64,000 nt of DNA, from assembly GCF_028641065.1 (NCBI RefSeq), contig NC_073406.1:4960001-5024000 (forward strand), written 5' to 3'. The DNA is from Leucoraja erinacea. Its lineage: Eukaryota. The notes below the pieces were generated by a model. It saw nothing but the letters and a program-made list of their open reading frames with translations, did not search any database and was not told the origin of the DNA. Positions 993 through 39,204 of the stretch are shown here, one piece after another. Both the position numbers and the translations under genes were made by a program. Position 1 is the stretch's first letter. Each line of letters opens with the position of its first letter.

Positions 993-1515
993 TCAAGGAA
1001 GGTCAAGTAAGCCATGTTGAGCGTACAAGTCCTGCGTGATATCGTAGGCCTTTGAAATGAGTGGCACAGCCTCTCCGAGCGTCTCCACGACCTTTTCAGT
1101 TGTGCCCATGTTCATGACCTCAAAGAAGTCTGCGCGACCGGGCAGAAAATGGAATGCAAGAACGGCAGACTTGCGCACTATCCACTGGTGATAGTTTGCC
1201 AGAGAGTCGTTGTAGGCCTCTGCGCACAAGACGGAGGTGTTGCTGTCATCGGAGGACACCCGTAGCTTTTCCAGGAAGAGCTGCAGCCACCTGAGGGCAC
1301 GGTGGAGTCTCAGTAGAGTACGGCAGCCAGAGTCCCAGTGATCGCCTCGCTTCTTCATGTCCACCAGCTTGTTGTCGACCTCGTACTTCACCATTGACTG
1401 GATGGTTTTATACTCGCTGCCGTTTTCGCCACTTTGGTAGTTTTCCAGAATTTGAATTTTGGTGACAGCATCCTTTGAAATAAAGGAAAAGGCTGTACCC
1501 AGGCTGCTCATGAAC
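993..1515 (-). CDS. CPTP: Ceramide-1-phosphate transfer protein (GLTP domain), coding exon 2 (last)
   Basis: Acceptor ...ccctgtttag|G at 1515, TGA at 993-995. Translation FMSSLGTAFSFISKDAVTKIQIL...SGCRTLLRLHRALRWLQLFL...LLDLP is GLTP-fold/CPTP-like. Length 523 nt (3n+1) fits the phase-2 exon 1. Confidence 0.95.
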
Positions 1516-2008
1516 CTAAACAGGGAATGAAATAACACACTTTAAATGTCGATGCAATTAAAATTTGAAGTAAAGAGAAAGAAAATTAGATATTAGAAAT
1601 TGAAAATAGGTGGTATTCGAGTGCACAATAATCACAGCCAGGGCATCCTATCCAAATTCTGAACTTATTTACTTGCAAGCCACTATTCCAACAAAATTCC
1701 ACTTTATTTTGTGGTTTTAAGAGGGGGTGGGAGAGAAATCATGATGTGCAAATCGTGAAAAATTATTAAGTGTAACAGTTATGATAATCAGCCTTTGGGT
1801 AGCATACAAAACAAAGAAACAAAACGCTGGAGTAACTGAGCGGGTCAGGCAGCAGCTCTGGAGAAATGAAATAGGTGACGTTTCGGATCACGACCCTTCC
1901 TCAAACTTAAGCAATATTTATCTGGTGTTATTTTGGATTTGCCGCATCTGTAGTTGTTGTTGTTGTTAGTGGATTTTGAGGATGACATTAGGTCGGCCGC
2001 ACACTCAC

Positions 2009-2127
2009 TTCACCAGACCCTTCCACCCAGCCAGGTAGTGCTGCTGCTCCAGCTCGCCGCTCTGGGTCAGGCAGTGTTTGAATGATTCCAGGACCTCGCT
2101 CAGCCTGAAGGCCTCCGCCGCCGCCAT
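2009..2127 (-). CDS. CPTP: CPTP coding exon 1, copy A (proximal)
   Basis: ATG at 2125-2127, MAAAEAFRLSEVLESFKHCLTQSGELEQQHYLAGWKGLV, donor AA|gtgagt. 119+523 nt gives 213 aa plus stop. Confidence 0.9.
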
Positions 2128-2545
2128 CTTGCCGCCAGCGGCCGCCGGCCAATCACACGGCGCGTACCACAGACTCCCGCCCGGGTCCTGTATGGAAGCG
2201 GCAACACGATTGGCTGAGCCCGGCAGAGGGGCGGGGAAGTAGGCGTTGTCGAGGCAACGGCGGTAGGTAGGCCCGAAGCCTCGGTCTTGCGTGACGGGCC
2301 GGCTGGTGTTGTCGTTCTTGGTTCTTGGTTTCTTCGTCCTCCAAAGTATTCCAAATGGAATTTAAACTGGAGGTGGTGAAGGTAGGGATTAAGCCAGAAA
2401 GGGTTATTGGGAAGAAAGAGCTACTTTAAATTTAGTTGCATCTGGTTGGGTAACTATAGTAGAGGTAACTATAGTAGGGTCGTTCGCATGTTTCCTCGGT
2501 GCTGGTCCGTGTGAGGAGCGGCTGCCCGCCACGGAAAGGTGAGGA
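2110..2545. promoter_or_regulatory. CpG-rich bidirectional promoter, copy A
   Basis: YY1-type GCCGCCATCTT over the CPTP ATG, opposed CCAAT boxes (ggccaatca, gattggc), GC box ggggcgggg, ETS ggaagt, CRE half-site gtgacg, and a plus-strand donor AAG|gtgagg at 2538/2539. Confidence 0.7.
2317..2478 (-). mobile_element. 162-bp insertion in promoter copy A with 6-bp TSD
   Basis: Absent from copy B. Flanked by GTCGTT at 2311-2316 and 2479-2484. The minus-strand end reads GAAGAAACCAAGAACCAAG, like a retroposon repeat tail. Confidence 0.65.
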
Positions 2546-3564
2546 CGGCACCCCGGTTCAATGGAAAGAGAATGGGTGGTTAAGAACAAGAAGGCTTTTA
2601 GTGCATCAGTCAGGGTATTGAGTAAAGAAGTAGAAAAAAATGATCTCGACCCGAAAGGAGATGCTGTATGTAAGACCGGCTGAGATACTCCAGCACTTTA
2701 TATCCATCTATCGAGTAGAGAAGTTGGGTTAGACACAAAATGCTGGAGTAACTCATCCATGCCCTGCACATTAGAAGCAGTTTAAAGAGGCTAATTAACA
2801 TACAAACTTGTGCATCTTTGGGACTCAAGAGGCAACCGGATCCACCTGGAGGAAACCCACGTGGACACAGAAAGAATGTGCAAATCTCCACACAGACAGC
2901 AGCCAAGATCAGGAATGAACCCTACCAAAGGACCATTAAACTAATTCCATTGCTCTACTCACTCTCTGTAACTTCACAGCTGCCCATACACCAAATAAAT
3001 GCACAGGAAAGCTCAGAATTGTTTTCTTTTTCTCTGGATGGGCGATGGTTCAGGACTAAACCAATATATTCCCCAAAGTTATAAAGTTGCCTTGAGGAAG
3101 CAAATAAAGATCACCCCCCTCCCACAGGTCACTAACAAGTAGCGTAATTATCCAGACAAAGATGGACAAGATTCATTTCCCTTGCAGATGCTGGTTTACA
3201 CCGAAGATAGGCACAAAAAGCTGGAGTAACTCAGCGGGACAGGCAACTTCTCTGGAGAGAAGGAATGGGTGACATTTTGGGTCGAGAACCTTCTTCAGAC
3301 AAAGTCACGCGAAAGGGAAATGAGAAATATAGACCATGATGTAGAGATATAGAACAATGAACGAAAGATATGCAAAAAAGCTATGATGATAATAAAGGAA
3401 ACAGGCCATCGTTAGCTGTTTATTAGGTGAAAATGAGAAGCTGGTGCGACTTGGGTGGGGGAGGGATAAAGAGGGAATGCCATGCTTACTTGAAGTTAGA
3501 GAAATCAATATCACTGGATTGTAAGCTCACCAAACGAAACATGAGATGCTGTTCCTCCAATTTG

Positions 3565-3853
3565 CATTTATAGCATGGAAACATGCCCTTCAGTCTACCA
3601 ATTCCACACTGACCATTGATCATCTGTTCATGCTAGTTCTATGTTATCCCACTTTCTCATCAGCTCCCTACACAATAGGGGCAATTTGCAGGGGGCCGAT
3701 GAACCTACAAACCCGCTGGTCTTTGAGATGTGGAGGGAGACAGGAGCACCCGGAGGAAACCCACGCAGTCATGGGGTGGAACGTGCAAACTCACACAGAC
3801 CGCACCCGAGGTTAGGATCGAACTTGGGTCTCCGGCGCTGAGGCAGCAGCTCC
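3565..3853 (-). mobile_element. HE1/V-SINE
   Basis: tRNA-like head, V-domain, CR1-like tail. Very similar to the copy at 8735-9042. Confidence 0.75.
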
Positions 3854-4738
3854 AGTGATCTAGAGATTATATTCCTATCTCCATAATGCAACATATGATG
3901 CTGGATGGTGCAAGATATCCAAGATGTGCTAGATGGTGCAAAACAAGAAATACTTTTTGCCTTCCATCACAGTGAGGAATCCGCTGTGGTAGATATTTAT
4001 GTCAACTTTTATGTAGTTGTGTGTCTTGTTTTTTTTGAGTGTGGCTGTATGGTAATCGAGTTTCACTGTATCTTAATTTGTACATGACAATAAAAGATCT
4101 TTGAAACCTTTGAAGTAGATACGATAGTAACAAAGGTGTATAGATTGCTTACATTCAGGACAATGAGTATAAAAGATAGGAATTTCACATTACAGCTTTA
4201 TTAAAGTGGTTTGATCACATGTGGATCTTTGTGTGAATTACTGGTCGCCCTATTACAGGAAGGGCGTGGAGGATTTAGAGAGGGTGCAGAAAGAGGTTTA
4301 CCAGGATGTTGCCTGCATTTAGGTATAAGTGTCACATGTACCAAGGCACATTGACAAGCCGGGGTGAAACTGGTCTTTGATTATGCTGATGGCCTTGCCG
4401 AGGCAGCATGAAGTGTAGATGGAGTCAATGGCATTAAGAATGTTTAATTTAGCAGTTCTACTGTGCTACCCACTACCTTGGCGCTGTATGGCAGCAACTC
4501 TACCGCTGCGCCACAGTGTTGCCCTAACATTGCCAGTGTTCTGTAACATAATGTCCCAACTTCCATGCTCAATATCCTGACTGATGAAGGACAAGGTTCC
4601 AGAAGCTTTCTATGCTTTGTATCTTAGTTTAGTTTATTGTCACGTGTACCGAGGTACAGTGAAACGCTTTTTAAACGGGCATCTGCTGTTGTGGCCCCAC
4701 GATCTCTGGGCCTGGTCCGGTGATTGTGGATTGTTGCT

Positions 4739-5247
4739 CTAACTCCTGTGGACGCGATGGTGCCCGATGAGGTTGGAGGCGCTTTTGAAGCCCTTGCCGC
4801 ACTTGAGGCAGCAGTAGGGCCGATCCTCGGAGTGTGTGCGGTAGTGCACCTGCACGGTGGAGGTTCGCCGGAAGGTCTTGCCACAGATGGGACAGGTGTA
4901 GGGCCTCTCTCCCGTGTGGATGCGCTTGTGGGTGACCAGCTGGTGCTGCTGCACAAACTCGCGGCCGCACGCCCTGCACTTGTACTGCTTCTCCCCGCGG
5001 TGGATCAGCTGGTGAATCTGCAGGTTGTAGGAGGTGCTGAAGCGTTTGCCGCAGGACGGGCACCAGTATGGACGCTCGCCGCTATGTACCCTGCCGTGTC
5101 GCTTCAGGTCGCAGTGCTGCTTGAAGCTCCTGCCGCACTCCGCGCAGGTGAAGGGCCTCGGGTCTCCGTCAGCACCAGCGCTGCGGCCAGCAGCAGCATC
5201 CTGCGAACCGGTGCCCGCATCTGATTGCTGCATTGTCCCCATCTCAC
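4739..5247 (-). CDS. C2H2 zinc-finger protein (5 fingers), exon 2
   Basis: Five CxxC-x12-HxxxH fingers with SGERP/RGEKQ/TGERP/SEDRP linkers. Acceptor tgcattgcag|GT at 5247, TAG at 4739-4741. Length 509 nt (3n+2). Confidence 0.88.
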
Positions 5248-6469
5248 CTGCAATGCAGCATGTCGCATTCACTATGCATCACAATCACATGCATTAGAAA
5301 CATAGAAAATAGGTGCAAGAGTGGGCCATTCGACCCTTCGAGCCAACACCGCCATTCAATATGATCATGTCTGATCATCTAAAATCTGTTACCATGTTCC
5401 TGCTTTTCCCCCCCCATATCCCTTGATTCCGTTAGCATCAAGAGCTAAATCTAACTCTCTGTTGAAAACATTAAAATTCAACACCTGCTAGAAGTATATA
5501 AATTAAGAGAGGCATAAATAGGGTAGACAGTCAGAACCTTCACCTCAGAGTGGAAATGTCAAAGAATAGAGGGCATAGCTTTAATGTTTAGAGATATGGA
5601 GCAGAAACAGGCCCTTTGGCCGACAAAATCCATCCCACCAGCGTAAATATAAAACATACCCAGAGCCAACCAGCTGTTTTCTTACTGGTTTAGTTTGGAG
5701 ATACAGCATGGAAAGAGGCCCTTCGGCCCACCGATTGCGCGCCGACCAGCGACCCCTTCACACTAGCACCATCCTACACACTAAGGACAATTTTGCGAGT
5801 CATTGCAGACATGCAGAATCTCCTCAATCGCACTGTTCTAGGTTCTATGCCTACCCTATTTATGCCGTTTGTATAGTTAGGACATAGAACAGCACAGCAG
5901 AGCAACAGACCCTTCAATTTACAATGTTTGTGCCGAACCTGATTCTAAGACCGACTCTTATTTCCGACTACATTCTTTCTTTGTCCGGCCCCCTCCCCTG
6001 ACAGTCTGAAGAAGGGTCTGACCCGAAATATCACCCATTCCTTCTCTCCAGAGATGCTGCCTGACCCACTGAGTGACTCCAGCATTTCCTGTCTACCTTT
6101 GATTTAAACCAACATCTGCATTTCTTTCCAACACCAACTATTATCTGACTTGAATGGTGCTTGATGGAGCTAGATACAGTGACATTCTTTGTTTTGCATT
6201 ACAGTTCAGTAAAATCACTCTATGCAGAAGCACAATCATAATGTCACTCGTGTCAGGCAGGATCTGGTGGAGATGTAGATGTAGTGTGAGCAATAAATCG
6301 CCCACGTTGTGACATTGGCAGAGAACAATGCAGGTCTGTTTGGAAGGGATGGGGATGTAAACAGTGAGCGTCCTGGGCCTAGCAAGCCTCCCATGCGTCT
6401 GTCGTTTTAATTCAGGCGAAGCAAGTTGTCTCTTTGCAAGCATGGCGTTGCATTGCATAGTAAGCCCGG

Positions 6470-6612
6470 TGTGTGCGCGGTCTGCCGGCCTGTGTTCCCG
6501 GGGTGTTTACCTGCCATCGTCCCACCGCCGCCGCCACTGGCCTCGCCCTCTGACCCTCCGCACATGCGCCCGCCCGCCCACTGCGGAGATAGAGGCCTTT
6601 CCCTCGCGACAG
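6470..6612 (-). promoter_or_regulatory. CpG-rich promoter/first exon of the zinc-finger gene
   Basis: Local CpG enrichment, NRF1-like cgcacatgcgc, GC boxes (cccgcccgccc), and a ggcggcggcgg leader before the ATG. Confidence 0.55.
6511..6517 (-). CDS. C2H2 zinc-finger protein, coding part of exon 1 (ATG GCA G)
   Basis: gggacgATGGCAG|gtaaac in a CpG-rich patch. The phase-1 donor matches the 5247 acceptor, giving MAGEMGTMQQSD..., 171 aa in total. Confidence 0.65.
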
Positions 6613-7992
6613 GGATTCTGGGTAACTGGTCACGGCTGACATTTTCTTTCAAATGTTACACCTCACCCATTGCTTCTCTCCAGAGATGCTGCCTAACCCA
6701 CTGAGTTACTCCAGCATTTTTACGTCAATCCTCAGCTCAACCCAATGGGGTAAAGGCAGGAGAATGGGGTTGAAAGGGGAAAAAAATCGATCAAATAGAG
6801 AAGAAAAATGAGTGCTGATCGATCAACAGGGATTGTGAGAAGCAGGGACTCGATGTGCCAAAACTTTGCACCCTCCTATGGTCTACAAGCAGATGTGAAT
6901 GAGTGCTGATGTTAATTATTTTGATCAAACAGGGATAGTGTGAATTGGTCAAAGCCTGGGACAAACATTTAGAAAGGAGATGAAGATGAATTTCAGTTGG
7001 AAATCACATAAAATTGCCACAGAACACCCTCCATATTTTTAAGGTGAAATTGACAGATTTTAATTAGCCTTATTGAGGTACAAGCAGATGACATTTTTGA
7101 ATTGTCCAAATGCCTACCTCTTACGATGTATGAATTGCTAAAATGCTGATGTCAGGCAGCAGCTTAAAGGTTTATGCTAGATTGCCAAATTATCTGCCGT
7201 GAAAAGAAACTAACTGTTTTACACTAGTGAGAGTGTCTAGAATCAGATTTTGAGGATCAAATTAGGTCCTCAGAATAAGCTCCTTCCATCCAGCAGGTAG
7301 ACAGATTCTTAATTAGTACGGGTGTCGAAGGGGTTATCTGGGAGAAGGTAGGAGTATGGGGTCGAGAGGGAAAGATAGATCAGCCATGATTGAATGGTGG
7401 AGTTGACTTTATGGGTCGAATGTCCTAACTCTGCTCCTACAACGTATGAATTCAAATAAATATAATTGCCTACAGAACACTGTGGCCAGGCCATCTAATC
7501 AATTGATATTTTTAAGGTGATGATTGACAGATTCTTAATTAGTACAGGTGCAACGGGCAGTTTAGGTCTGGTAGTAATGGGGCAATATAGAAATAAAGAC
7601 AGAATAAGCAACCAATGTGACGGATAGACTGGGGAAATCTATCGGCGGGACTCCGAGTTCAGCAATGTGATAGTGTTGTTGAAGAAGCTGCACCTTTATC
7701 ATTGCATAACTTTCATTCATTTGTTCTTTATCACTCTACATCACCGTCTAAATCTCTCGTTTCCCTTTCCCATGACTCTCAGATTGAAGGGTCTCGATCT
7801 GAAATGTCACTCCAGAGATGCTGTCTGACCCAAAATGCTGCTGAGTTACATTTGTGTCTATCTTCGGTATTTTAAACCAAAGATCTTAAACCAGCATCTG
7901 CAGTTCCTTCCTACAATATCCTTCCTGCTATACTCATGGGTTGTTGTTGTTATTGGATTTTGAGAATGACATTAGGTCGGCAGCTCACTCAC

Positions 7993-8111
7993 TTCACCAG
8001 CCCCTTCCACCCAGCCAGGTAGTGCTGCTGCTCCAGCTCGCCACTCTGGGTCAGGCAGCATCTGAATGATTCCAGGACCTCGCTCAGCCTGAAGGTCTCG
8101 GCCGCCGCCAT
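7993..8111 (-). CDS. CPTP: CPTP coding exon 1, copy B (distal duplicate; alternative first exon or relic)
   Basis: ATG at 8109-8111, MAAAETFRLSEVLESFRCCLTQSGELEQQHYLAGWKGLV, intact donor AA|gtgagt. 7 differences in 119 nt versus copy A. Confidence 0.6.
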
Positions 8112-8360
8112 CTTGCCGCTAGCGGCCGCCGGCCAATCACACGGCGCGTACCACAGACTCCCGCCCGGGTCCTGTATGGAAGCGGCGACGCGATTGGCTA
8201 AACCCGGCGGAGGGGCGGGGAAGTAGGCGTTGTCGAGGCAACGGCGGTAGGTAGGCCCGAAGCCTCGGGCTTGCGTGACGGGCCGGCTGGTGTCGTCGTT
8301 CGCTTGTTTCCTTGGTGCTGATCCGTGTGAGGAGCGGCTGCTCGCCACTTAAAGGTGAGG
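8095..8360. promoter_or_regulatory. CpG-rich bidirectional promoter, copy B, with probable non-coding INTS11 leader exon (donor after 8354)
   Basis: Same YY1/CCAAT/GC-box/ETS/CRE array as copy A. Plus-strand donor AAG|gtgagg at 8354/8355 and a matching acceptor ctgacag|A at 9599/9600 before the INTS11 ATG. Confidence 0.72.
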
Positions 8361-8734
8361 AGGGCACCCCGGTTCAATGGAAGGAGATGGGGTGGTCAAG
8401 AAGGCTTTTAGTGCATCAGACAGGGTATTGAGTAAAGAAGTAGAAAAAAAGGCCCCCGACCCGAAAGGAGATGCTGTATATGGCCCCCTGAGATACTCCA
8501 GCACTTTATGTGTATCTATCGAGTATACGTTGGGTTAGACACACAATGCTGGATTAACTCAGCGGGTCAGGCAGCATCTCTGGAGAACATGGATAGGTGA
8601 CATATCAGGTCAGGGTGCTTCTTCAGACTGAGAGTCGAGACATTATGTTACAGTTGTACAATATGTTGATGAGGCCACTAATTACCAAAGATCCTCTCTG
8701 CTATAAGATCTTTGCTGATTACTGTAGTTTATTT

Positions 8735-9042
8735 TAGAGATATAGCATGGAAACGTGCCCTTCAATCCACCCACTCCACACTGACCATTGATCACCCATT
8801 CATGCTAGTTCTATGTTATCCCACTTTCTCATCCACGCCCTGCATACTATGGGGCAATTTGCAGTTGCCAATTAACCTCCAAACCTGCACGTCTTTGGGA
8901 TGCTTGGGAAACCGGAGCACCCAGAGGAAACCCACGCAGTCACAGGGAGAACGTGCAAATTCATCACAGACAGCACCCGAAGTTAGGATCGAACCTGGAT
9001 CTCTAACGCTGTGAGGCGGCAACTTTACCTACTGTGCCACAA
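8735..9042 (-). mobile_element. HE1/V-SINE
   Basis: Same SINE consensus as the other copies. Confidence 0.75.
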
Positions 9043-9617
9043 TATTGCCGCAGTACTCTGTTCAGTTTTAGTCAACCGGCTGTAGGAAGGATTTCATTCT
9101 GCTGGAAAGGGTGCAGAGATGATTTATGAGGATGTTGCCAGGCATCAAGGGCCTGAGCTATGGGGAGAGGTTGGGCAGTTCTTTGGAGTGTATAGGCTGA
9201 AGGGTTATCTTATGGAGGTGTATAAAATCACGATGAAGGGGATAGATAGGGCGAACGCACAGGCTTTTACCCAGATTAGGGGAAATCAAAGCTGAAGGAT
9301 AGAAAACCTGTGAATTGTGGAGCTGGAGGAAGGATTAAGGGGGAAGGGAAGGGGAGGGGAGAGGGGTGTTTATAGAAGTTACCTAAAACTGGGGAATTCA
9401 ATGTCCATACCGCTGGGCTGTAAGCGGTGCTGCTCCATCAGTTTGTGTGTGGCCTCACTCTGGTAATGGAGGAGGGCCAGGCCAGAAAGATCAGTATAGA
9501 TACTTTGTGTTGTGTTTTGCTTATATTGAGTTCTTCAAACTTAACAGCTTTCCTTGACAACATTTAGAATGACTGACTGACTTCACTCCAATCTGACAGA
9601 GCGAAACCTAGTTACAA

Positions 9618-9645
9618 ATGCCTGAAATAAAAGTCACGCCTTTGG
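9618..9645 (+). CDS. INTS11: Integrator complex subunit 11, coding exon 1
   Basis: MPEIKVTPL-G|gtaag, 28 nt. Confidence 0.93.
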
Positions 9646-9734
9646 GTAAGAAATCCAACATTATGGCAAATTTTACAATGGAACTCGTGGTGCAATGAGT
9701 TCAGAAAATGGACCCTTTCTTGATTTTATTTCAG

Positions 9735-9832
9735 GTGCGGGCCAGGATGTGGGCCGGAGCTGTATTTTGGTCTCAATTGGTGGGAAAAACGTGATGCTGG
9801 ATTGTGGAATGCACATGGGATTTAATGACGAT
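9735..9832 (+). CDS. INTS11: INTS11 coding exon 2
   Basis: [37 protein letters not shown] boundaries, 98 nt. Confidence 0.95.
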
Positions 9833-38050: not shown

Positions 38051-39007
38051 CTAGCGCAGGGCCACGGTGTAAACCTTCTGCGATCTCCTCTTTGTGCTGT
38101 ACTTTGGCCTGAACTTGTTGGTTGCAAAGAAGTATATGAGAGGGTCGAGGCAGCAGGTGAGGCTGACTAAGGCCATGGTGACACGCCGGCTCTTGTAGAG
38201 GAAGCTGCGGAAAGCACAGTCCTCGATGACTTCCAAACGGCCAAACACGTAGAAGACGTGGGTGACGTGATACGGGACGAGGCAGAGAATGGAGATGACC
38301 ATAATGGCCCAGATCATTCTCAGAGCCTTGTCCCTGTGAACGCTGCTCTTCAGCCGGGCGATTTTCCTGGCGGCCAGCGGGTAGAATATAATGATGATTG
38401 TGAAGGGGATGAAGAAGCCGAAGAAGAACGCTATGATGTTGTAGGCCGCCATCCACTCGCTCCAAGCCTTGGCGTCAAAGTTCTCGAAGCAAGCGGTGGA
38501 GTTGCCGGTGCCGGCGTTGTTGAGCGTGCCGCCGGTGACCAGCGGCAGCATGATGGCCAAGGCCAGCAGCCAGACCAGCGCCGCCACCACCCGCGGGACC
38601 CTTGACCCCCTCACCCGGAGGTACTTGCGAGGGTAGACCACCGCAATGTAGCGGTCCAAGCAAATCAGGCTGAGGAAAGTAACGCTGAGGTAAACGTTGG
38701 CGTAATACAAAGTGCCTGTGATCCTGCAGGTCACGTCCCCAAATACCCAGTTGTTGTGCTTCATGTGGTAATGGATTCTGAAGGGCAAGGTGCAAATATA
38801 AATGATGTCCACCACGATCAGGTTTGCAATGTAGATGAAGGATGGGGAGGCTTTTTTAGTTTTCTTTATAAAAATGCAGAGGGCCGAGACATTTCCGGTC
38901 AAGCCCAGGACAAACACGATGGTGTAGACCGCGGGGAACAACTGGTACTGGAAATGGGCCTCGTCGGTGCAGTTCCCGCTGGAGGGGGCTCGTCCCAAGT
39001 TGCCCAT
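38051..39007 (-). CDS. Class A GPCR, P2Y/LPAR6-like (delta group), single coding exon, 318 aa
   Basis: Seven hydrophobic segments, TM1 GN, LPFRI-Y, W-FGD--C, CLDRY, ECL2 TACFENF (LPAR6/LPAR4-like), TM6 CLVPYH, TM7 CCLDPLIY, N-terminal NCT sequon, Kozak aacATGG. Candidate upstream acceptor at 39075. Confidence 0.92.
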   Translation of the reverse strand: MGNLGRAPSSGNCTDEAHFQYQLFPAVYTIVFVLGLTGNVSALCIFIKKTKKASPSFIYIANLIVVDIIYICTLPFRIHYHMKHNNWVFGDVTCRITGTLYYANVYLSVTFLSLICLDRYIAVVYPRKYLRVRGSRVPRVVAALVWLLALAIMLPLVTGGTLNNAGTGNSTACFENFDAKAWSEWMAAYNIIAFFFGFFIPFTIIIIFYPLAARKIARLKSSVHRDKALRMIWAIMVISILCLVPYHVTHVFYVFGRLEVIEDCAFRSFLYKSRRVTMALVSLTCCLDPLIYFFATNKFRPKYSTKRRSQKVYTVALR

Positions 39008-39204
39008 GTTTCAGTTGGTCGCCCACAACGTTGGGTGCTTTGGCAGAGCTGGTCCCAAGGCAACGCCCAGATCACCTGGATACAAGGCAGCAAAGATCAG
39101 ACATTCACTGATAAATGCAAGGCCAGAGAGAGGCATCTCAGTGGGAGGAGGAGGGGGGGGGGGGGGGGGGAAGAGCAATCTAATCATGGGAGAGTTGTGT
39201 GTGC

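What the first reader, a model, noticed from the sequence alone, without database searches (positions are those of the whole stretch)
1954..8561. Duplicated CPTP/INTS11 bidirectional promoter plus CPTP exon 1, with a zinc-finger gene between the copies
Seen: about 1954-2755 and about 7941-8561 are direct, diverged copies. Each has an intact CPTP exon 1 (ATG, 119 nt, gtgagt donor), the same YY1/CCAAT/GC-box/ETS/CRE array and a plus-strand donor. The exons differ at 7 of 119 nt (3 synonymous; A6T, K17R, H18C) and copy A carries a private 162-bp insertion, so this does not look like a collapsed or duplicated haplotig. Known: CPTP and INTS11 are a head-to-head pair in human. Inferred: the shared promoter was duplicated around an inserted gene, so copy A could serve CPTP and copy B could serve INTS11. 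Alternatively, both genes have two first exons with overlapping sense/antisense transcription across the 6-kb interval.
Basis: partly seen in the sequence, partly recalled or inferred. Interest (0 to 1): 0.8.

Follow-up and report, generated by a model that had tools for sequence, protein, structure and literature searches.

The report
Skate two-way promoter split by duplication
In a skate, the two-way promoter shared by a lipid-transfer gene (CPTP) and an RNA-processing gene (INTS11) is present twice together with a neighbouring zinc-finger gene; RNA reads show the second copy starting INTS11 and splicing its leftover CPTP first exon onto the shortened zinc-finger gene while the first copy starts CPTP, so one shared promoter has likely become two partly specialised ones.

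Summary
The duplication is real, but larger than described. The zinc-finger (ZF) gene between the copies is not an inserted stranger. It is a five-finger copy of a ten-finger gene just beyond CPTP, colinear with it and of the same age as the promoter copies (dS 0.15 and 0.12). A [ZF–CPTP–promoter] unit was likely duplicated in tandem, and the second unit lacks CPTP exon 2.

RNA reads: INTS11 starts in copy B (about 8249) and splices 8354→9568/9548, not 9600. No copy-A route was seen; copy A's INTS11 arm carries a young 168-bp LINE fragment. Copy A exon 1 splices to CPTP exon 2. Copy B exon 1 splices onto the short ZF exon (7 reads, 2 runs), out of frame, and probably also to CPTP exon 2 (indirect evidence).

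Amblyraja RefSeq isoforms carry both exon types and the ZF first exon, so this is no assembly error. In one relative's DNA, one copy has lost the CPTP start codon.

Verdict: a promoter-retaining partial duplicate with fusion transcripts, a known kind. The uncommon twist is that a bidirectional housekeeping promoter is being uncoupled while CPTP and INTS11 appear to stay single here. Moderate interest.

The parts
993..1515 (-). CPTP exon 2, coding part; the only close copy found in the genome
   Evidence: PF08718; 98% to Amblyraja CPTP; one full match plus a 46% paralogue on C896; in RNA contigs
2009..2127 (-). CPTP exon 1, copy A (K17 H18 type), ATG at 2127, donor after 2009
   Evidence: X1 contig joins 2111-2007 (1 other letter) to 1513-900; same N-terminus as RefSeq P0122 and Amblyraja P0125
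2128..2310 (.). Promoter core, copy A (CpG island, motif array)
   Evidence: 175 of 182 columns identical to copy B; CpG observed/expected 0.84 vs 0.53 for the window
2311..2485 (-). 5'-truncated LINE 3' end inserted in copy A's INTS11 5'-UTR exon, with a 7-bp target-site duplication (2311-2317, 2479-2485); adds an upstream ATG
   Evidence: 38 dispersed matches at 93-98% among the 40 candidates scored; variable 5' truncation; a longer copy encodes RVT_1; TSD; upstream ATG
2479..2538 (+). 3' part and donor of INTS11 exon 1, copy A; no use seen in RNA
   Evidence: copy-A letter at B position 8294 in 0 of 28 (X23) and 0 of 11 (X24) reads; no copy-A rows at 8304 or 8342
4179..5247 (-). Short ZF gene, terminal exon: five C2H2 fingers (ORF 5242-4742), acceptor at 5247, inferred poly(A) site near 4179-4200
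   Evidence: Pfam; fingers 4-8 of the ten-finger paralogue missing in frame, dN/dS 0.33; RNA contigs 4179-5251 and molecule ends at 4198
6510..6664 (-). Short ZF gene's own first exon and CpG promoter
   Evidence: 151 of 156 columns identical to the paralogue's; Amblyraja CPTP isoform X3 N-terminus maps to 6548-6510
7246..7300 (-). Weak third remnant of the CPTP exon-1/intron boundary, donor lost
   Evidence: local score 50; best of 1000 shuffles 36
7993..8111 (-). CPTP exon 1, copy B (R17 with C or R at 18), with no exon 2 in its own unit; spliced to the ZF acceptor at 5247 and probably to CPTP exon 2 at 1515
   Evidence: loose ends at 7988 match the short ZF exon exactly in 4 (X23) + 3 (X24) reads; proteins P0001, P0126, P0129-P0131; depth arithmetic
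8112..8294 (.). Promoter core, copy B, active in both directions
8249..8354 (+). INTS11 exon 1 (non-coding), copy B; 5' ends at about 8249, donor after 8354
   Evidence: adapter-like loose ends at 8249 in 3 + 5 reads; spliced loose ends at 8348/8354 in 12 + 17 (X23) and 14 + 9 (X24) reads; X1 contig
9548..9646 (+). INTS11 exon 2 with two acceptors (9548, 9568); ATG at 9618
   Evidence: downstream exon 12346-12594 matches Integrator subunit 11 at E 4e-48

Best explanation
A roughly 9-kb unit (ten-finger ZF gene, CPTP, and the CPTP/INTS11 bidirectional promoter) was likely duplicated in tandem in an ancestor of rajid skates; the second unit lacks CPTP exon 2 and five fingers, the first copy's INTS11 arm carries a LINE fragment, and RNA shows INTS11 starting from copy B, CPTP starting from copy A, and copy B's leftover CPTP exon 1 spliced onto the short ZF gene. 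Copy B's minus-strand transcript meets the ZF terminal exon first (2.7-kb intron, inferred poly(A) near 4179). It reaches CPTP exon 2 (6.5-kb intron) only when that exon is skipped (inferred). The ZF fusion is out of frame: 40 CPTP codons, then a stop, with the ZF ATG one base after it. It is therefore predicted to give little ZF protein unless ribosomes reinitiate or scan past the first ATG. Each copy is thus likely kept by complementary losses, i.e. subfunctionalisation. The split appears complete for INTS11 and partial for CPTP here, and appears complete in a relative whose likely copy B has lost the CPTP ATG.
For: Structure: ZF paralogues are colinear over 3' flank, coding exon, intron, first exon and upstream SINE (88, 85, 79, 92, 88%). 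Divergence is similar across blocks: ZF dS 0.146, exon-1 dS 0.121, non-coding blocks 0.065-0.132. There is no CPTP exon 2 in 6803-7940. INTS11 is from B: 5' ends at 8249, two acceptors, copy-A letter at 8294 in 0 of 39 reads; contig 8244-8348 then 9734-9832. CPTP is from A: contig, P0122 and P0125. B to ZF: 7 reads in 2 runs, agreement 1.0, matching the short and not the long paralogue. B to CPTP: 4 unnamed Logan proteins carry the B-type R-C exon plus exon 2, and Amblyraja X1 carries R-R. One of them, P0130, carries a change 21 nt from the donor that X24's single minus-strand read shows on a B-type exon, and that read starts at 7991, the clip position expected for CPTP exon 2. Age: Amblyraja has A-type, B-type and ZF-exon-1 CPTP isoforms. 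DNA runs X15 and X19 each hold two versions of the promoter, and X19's both lack the LINE.
Against: Read numbers are small: 52 and 32 reads laid, from two runs of one study, about 5% of each read. No row shows the B-exon-1 to CPTP-exon-2 junction directly (11 loose-end rows hidden), and de Bruijn contigs can recombine copies through the 41-nt identical stretch. In X23 only 1 of 7 reads over 8043 carried the copy-A letter, so copy A may not be the main CPTP source there. Copy-A-like letters occur in INTS11 reads at 8313, 8321 and 8349-50, and at 8269 in 2 of 11 X24 reads; I read them as ancestral or polymorphic alleles of B. Exon-1 dN/dS (0.38) is not significant (p 0.35). No pre-duplication locus could be read, so the tandem origin and the order of losses are inferred. 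The two versions in X15 and X19 could be alleles.
Confidence: 0.75

Rival explanations
1. Same present-day wiring, different origin: one complex template-switch event copied the ZF gene and then the promoter, so the second unit never held CPTP exon 2.
For: No trace of CPTP exon 2, its 3' UTR or most of its intron in 6803-7940. A stray remnant of the exon-1/intron boundary at 7246-7300 hints at multiple switches.
Against: A plain tandem copy followed by a deletion explains the order and equal ages equally well. The ZF copy itself shows a later in-frame internal deletion. No junction microhomology was identified.
Confidence: 0.15
2. One reading: only the promoter was duplicated around an inserted, unrelated ZF gene, with strict division of labour (A for CPTP only, B for INTS11 only).
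For: INTS11 reads come from B and a CPTP contig from A.
Against: The ZF gene has a colinear, same-age paralogue 9 kb away, with intron and promoter. B exon 1 is transcribed and spliced in the CPTP direction.
Confidence: 0.04
3. The exon-1B/ZF junction is a selected regulatory device: it diverts part of copy B's CPTP-direction output to limit CPTP dosage, or gives the ZF gene a housekeeping promoter throttled by an upstream ORF.
For: About half of X23's reads at the exon-1B donor go to the ZF exon (4 of about 8). The ZF pair is under purifying selection (dN/dS 0.33, p 0.003). A relative has lost the upstream ATG in its likely copy B, which would free the ZF start.
Against: Out-of-frame fusions are the usual by-product of promoter-retaining partial duplicates (PMC6169893, passages). 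The ZF gene keeps its own promoter. Several apparent B alleles change amino acids in exon 1, as expected of relaxed constraint. No protein or ribosome data.
Confidence: 0.15
4. False duplication from an uncollapsed haplotype.
For: Depth and long-read span in the assembly's own sample could not be tested.
Against: The copies are 7-13% diverged in non-coding blocks. The B-to-ZF junction needs B and the short ZF gene on one molecule. A second genus has both exon types.
Confidence: 0.01

Closest known systems
3'-truncated segmental duplicates with fusion transcripts (SRGAP2B/C, NOTCH2NL-NBPF, ARHGAP11B; Dougherty et al. 2018, PMC6169893; passages read)
   Same: The duplicate keeps the ancestral promoter and first exon, lacks downstream exons, and splices onto neighbouring gene sequence, rarely in frame.
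   Different: Here the promoter is bidirectional and the truncated copy appears to be the only working promoter of an essential neighbour (INTS11). It lies in tandem upstream of the parent's last exon, so it can probably still feed the parent. The copies are older (7-13% non-coding divergence).
SRGAP2-FAM72 divergently paired genes duplicated in human (PMC12672016; passages read)
   Same: A head-to-head pair's shared promoter is duplicated.
   Different: There the pair was multiplied to four copies. Here CPTP exon 2 is single at this locus, no second INTS11 exon 2 was seen between the copies, and the two promoter copies serve different directions.
Drosophila hydra, tandem duplicated alternative first exons (Chen et al. 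2007, PMC1904467; abstract and outline read)
   Same: Tandem promoter/exon-1 copies act as alternative starts of one gene.
   Different: hydra duplicated exon 1 of one gene. Here a third gene lies between the copies and captures one of them, and the promoter is bidirectional.
Conserved INTS11-CPTP neighbourhood (PMC10781636; one passage read)
   Same: INTS11 lies next to CPTP, and a rhodopsin-family receptor in the window could be the LPAR6 of that gene order (name not tested).
   Different: The passage describes the order for sarcopterygians and mentions no duplication and no skate.

Membership tests
3'-truncated duplicate with fusion transcript | Duplicate keeps the ancestral promoter and is transcribed | tested here: met
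   175 of 182 columns identical; exon-1B reads and INTS11 5' ends
3'-truncated duplicate with fusion transcript | Downstream exons of the parent are missing from the duplicate | tested here: met
   no CPTP exon 2 in the second unit
3'-truncated duplicate with fusion transcript | Splices to a segment of another gene | tested here: met
   4 + 3 reads join exon 1B to the short ZF exon; out of frame
Segmental duplication, strict definition (over 90% identity, PMC6169893; over 1 kb is recalled) | Over 90% identity across the duplicated segment | tested here: not met
   blocks of 79-94%; this is an older duplication of the same kind
Duplicated alternative first exons (hydra type) | Both copies splice to the common downstream exon | tested here: inconclusive
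   A shown; B supported by 5 database proteins and depth arithmetic but by no listed junction row
Duplicated alternative first exons (hydra type) | Duplication confined to promoter and exon 1 | tested here: not met
   the ZF gene is part of the unit
Duplicated divergently paired genes (SRGAP2-FAM72 type) | Extra copies of the paired genes arise | tested here: not met
   CPTP exon 2 has one close match in the genome; no INTS11 exon 2 in the first unit; INTS11 copy number genome-wide was not searched
Bidirectional promoter | Transcription in both directions from each copy | tested here: inconclusive
   copy B: both directions seen; copy A: CPTP direction seen, INTS11 direction not seen in 2 raw runs
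Bidirectional promoter | Promoter activity of the isolated fragment in both orientations | not testable with these tools
   needs reporter assays
Non-LTR retrotransposon insertion | Target-site duplication, 3' repeat tail, variable 5' truncation, reverse transcriptase in longer copies | tested here: met

The most novel reading that the evidence does not exclude
A tandem duplication has uncoupled a head-to-head housekeeping pair and built a dosage valve: the duplicated zinc-finger terminal exon intercepts about half of the second promoter's CPTP-direction transcripts, and in some skate lineages loss of the CPTP start codon turns that exon into a clean leader that hands a housekeeping promoter to a young zinc-finger gene. 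Skates would then hold a graded natural series from shared promoter to full promoter capture.
Probability: 0.2. Interest if true: 0.65.

Novelty: new variant of a known kind. Interest (0 to 1): 0.42.

Why it matters
Head-to-head gene pairs are usually described as locked together by a shared promoter. This locus shows one route by which the lock can be opened without adding copies of either gene, with different skates apparently at different stages: both exons intact, LINE present or absent, start codon lost. It offers a compact natural test of which sequence changes make a bidirectional promoter effectively one-way. It also matters for annotation: CPTP isoform lists in skates mix three first exons, and the two ZF proteins were not found by the look-ups tried. 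It reveals no new molecular mechanism.

Tried and rejected
Inserted foreign ZF gene: rejected by the colinear paralogue. Unique private insertion: rejected, it is a LINE end. In-frame CPTP-ZF fusion protein: rejected, a stop follows codon 40. INTS11 acceptor at 9600: not among the listed loose ends.

One search listed no holder on record as RNA; this is no evidence either way, and raw RNA runs under the same species label were laid instead. One search's joint table was swamped by SINE reads (15 of 252 rows shown) and could not show the CPTP or ZF junctions, so one search used the repeat-free copy B only.

Searches for ZF orthologues in other cartilaginous fishes failed. One search returned only generic multi-finger proteins (best listed about 50% identity; 120 of 3401 shown). 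One search found 1 candidate and none significant. One search found 0. Exact look-ups found 0 of 7 ZF variants. These blanks are not evidence of absence.

The tool that fetches DNA around a database protein was closed, so no relative's locus could be read as contiguous DNA.

Literature: CPTP + skate gave 0 papers. CPTP/INTS11/bidirectional promoter gave 18 papers, 15 listed, none on this locus by title or abstract start. Searches listed no case of this layout. (divergence date of the two skate genera) was seen as a listing only and no date is claimed. Earlier scan notes held nothing for this place or sequence.
Full report
Organism and genes. The window is G000:C30:4960001-5024000. The minus-strand exon at 1515-993 is CPTP: PF08718, 98% to Amblyraja radiata CPTP. 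Copy A exon 1 plus this exon reads the same as RefSeq protein P0122 of Leucoraja erinacea, so this is a rajid skate. The plus-strand gene is INTS11 (E 4e-48 to Integrator subunit 11).

The observation. Copies A (1956-2755) and B (7940-8561) align at 93.9% over 377 nt and 87.0% over 277 nt. Both have a 119-nt ATG-to-donor exon, with 7 differences of which 3 are synonymous. The motif array is in register and both cores are CpG-rich (motif names recalled). The genome search found the core only at these two places. The insertion in A is 168 bp net, bounded by a 7-bp target-site duplication. It gave 38 dispersed matches at 93-98% among 40 scored of 1170 candidates. The 8 loci examined share its 3' end and extend to different lengths, and one carries a reverse-transcriptase frame. 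It is a young 5'-truncated LINE, and it adds an upstream ATG to copy A's would-be INTS11 leader.

The duplicated unit is larger. The ZF exon has an 86-90% match about 9.4 kb away, beyond CPTP exon 2 and outside the window. I fetched 40 kb upstream. The two ZF genes are colinear over 3' flank, coding exon, intron, first exon/promoter and an upstream SINE. The outer gene has ten C2H2 fingers and the inner one five; fingers 4-8 are missing in frame. Over 163 shared codons dS is 0.146 and dN 0.048 (ratio 0.33, Fisher p 0.003). Exon 1A versus 1B gives dS 0.121 (39 codons; ratio 0.38, p 0.35). Non-coding blocks give 0.065-0.132 and the two promoter cores 0.033-0.039. These values fit one event. The order is ZF-long, CPTP exon 2, copy A, ZF-short, copy B, INTS11 exon 2. 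Between ZF-short and copy B there is no CPTP exon 2, and the genome holds one close match to that exon plus a 46% paralogue elsewhere. A composite SINE at 3569-3851 and 8741-9024 forms a reciprocal best pair within 104 kb, so the right edge may lie there (tentative, next-best score 260 vs 277). A 55-nt remnant of the exon-1/intron boundary lies at 7246-7300 (score 50, best of 1000 shuffles 36).

RNA, INTS11 direction. I laid 6 of the 24 runs listed (X1, X3, X15, X19, X23, X24). That organism A is the window's species is inferred from low difference rates and shared reference alleles. In one search an X1 contig of 2557 nt lies on 8244-8348 and 9734-9832, and the 9644/9734 junction has 20 and 16 reads in X23 and X24. 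laid raw reads on copy B alone at 85% likeness, so that copy-A reads would also land. Loose ends at 8249 (3 and 5 reads) read like a template-switch adapter (identity recalled) and mark 5' ends. Loose ends at 8348 and 8354 (12 + 17 reads in X23, 14 + 9 in X24) continue into 9568 or 9548. The copy-A letter at 8294, the LINE edge, was in 0 of 28 and 0 of 11 reads, and no row appears for copy-A letters at 8304 or 8342 (a row needs 3 reads). Against this: copy-A-like letters are common at 8313, 8321 and 8349-50, and occur at 8269 in 2 of 11 X24 reads. The first two are carried by all contigs of both relatives, so I read them as ancestral. The 8269 reads appear to run on past 8294 without the LINE.

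RNA, CPTP direction. An X1 contig joins 2111-2007 (1 other letter, so copy A) to exon 2. In one search, 4 reads in X23 and 3 in X24 end at 7988 with loose letters identical to the short ZF exon; the long paralogue differs at 3 of those 30 letters. Exon 1B therefore splices to 5247. The product is 40 CPTP codons and a stop, with the ZF ATG one base later. Splicing of exon 1B to CPTP exon 2 is less direct. Of 12 members of the skate CPTP cluster, 4 unnamed Logan proteins (P0126, P0129-P0131) have the B-type R-C exon joined to exon 2, and 1 (P0127) mixes A and B letters. Such contigs can recombine through the 41-nt stretch shared by A and B. However, P0130 carries A34D, which lies 21 nt from the donor and breaks that stretch. 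X24's single minus-strand read has this change, is B-type at 8059-8062, and begins at 7991, where a CPTP junction would be clipped. X23's depth fits four more reads beginning at 7991, at least two of them B-type (inference from binned depth, other solutions exist; 11 loose-end rows were hidden). Only 1 of 7 X23 reads over 8043 had the copy-A letter, so B may supply much of the CPTP mRNA there.

Other skates. Amblyraja RefSeq has an A-type isoform (K-H, P0125), a second type (R-R, P0001), and one (P0124) whose N-terminus maps to the ZF first exon at 6548-6510. The last requires a ZF copy upstream of CPTP exon 2. Rhinoraja's one listed protein is R-R (P0123), so K-H looks derived in A. These are gene models whose read support I could not see. 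In DNA run X19 two contigs span 8217-8329 without the LINE (depths 26 and 21, merged neighbour 44). One exon-1 version is A-like at 8062 and 8190. In the other, 61 nt including the ATG are replaced by 27 nt without one. In X15 two versions cover 8128-8238, and a second contig appears to begin at 8295, as expected if the LINE is present. Alleles rather than paralogues cannot be excluded from contigs alone.

Mechanism. Shown: two promoter copies and two ZF genes of like age; INTS11 from B; CPTP from A; exon 1B spliced to the ZF exon; a LINE in A. Inferred: tandem duplication followed by loss of the second CPTP exon 2; competition between the near ZF terminal exon and the far CPTP exon for B's minus-strand transcripts; retention of both copies through complementary losses; little ZF protein from the fusion. 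Untested: any selected role of the fusion.

Comparison. It works like the 3'-truncated duplicates of PMC6169893 (passages), which keep the promoter and often form fusions that rarely alter the reading frame, and it meets those features, though it is too diverged for the strict definition. It shares a duplicated bidirectional promoter with SRGAP2-FAM72 (PMC12672016, passages) but adds no CPTP copy here. It shares tandem first exons with hydra (PMC1904467, abstract) but includes a third gene. Searches found no report of this locus in the open library; subscription papers and supplements were not seen.

Verdict. Real, shared between at least two skate genera, and a new variant of a known kind. 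What remains notable is the asymmetric uncoupling of a housekeeping pair and the apparent series of stages across skates.

Noticed in passing
G000:C30:4954885-4955793 (L017:4885-5793, minus strand): Ten-finger C2H2 gene, parent of the short ZF gene; no exact or close database protein was found for either paralogue although the short one is expressed.
   Followed up: partly
G000:C896:37795-38316: A second CPTP-like open frame, 46% identical to CPTP exon 2 over its whole length, on a separate contig.
   Followed up: no
window 7993-8120 in runs X23, X24, X15: Copy B exon 1 shows several apparent alleles (R-C and R-R at 17-18, A or T at 6, A34D), and one DNA contig mixes T6 with K-H like protein P0127; this may be gene conversion between A and B or a contig chimera.
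   Followed up: partly
window 9568-9580: INTS11 exon 2 begins with a three-codon upstream ORF ahead of the main ATG; two acceptors lie 20 nt apart.
   Followed up: partly
window 38054-39010, minus strand: Intronless rhodopsin-family receptor frame (PF00001); it may be the LPAR6 placed next to INTS11 in PMC10781636 (name not tested).
   Followed up: partly
L019-L020 and L018 (G000:C30:4920001-4950000): Open frames that look like SDF4 (EF-hand) exons and TNF-receptor-family exons, with repeated TNFR-like pieces; names recalled, not tested.
   Followed up: no
L005 and the other loci: A young LINE family with a 6-nt repeat tail; copies are 96-100% alike and pieces of it appear in the RNA runs.
   Followed up: partly
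window 3579-3998: RNA contigs lie beyond the inferred ZF poly(A) site, suggesting read-through or a longer 3' UTR toward copy A; part of the stretch is SINE.
   Followed up: no
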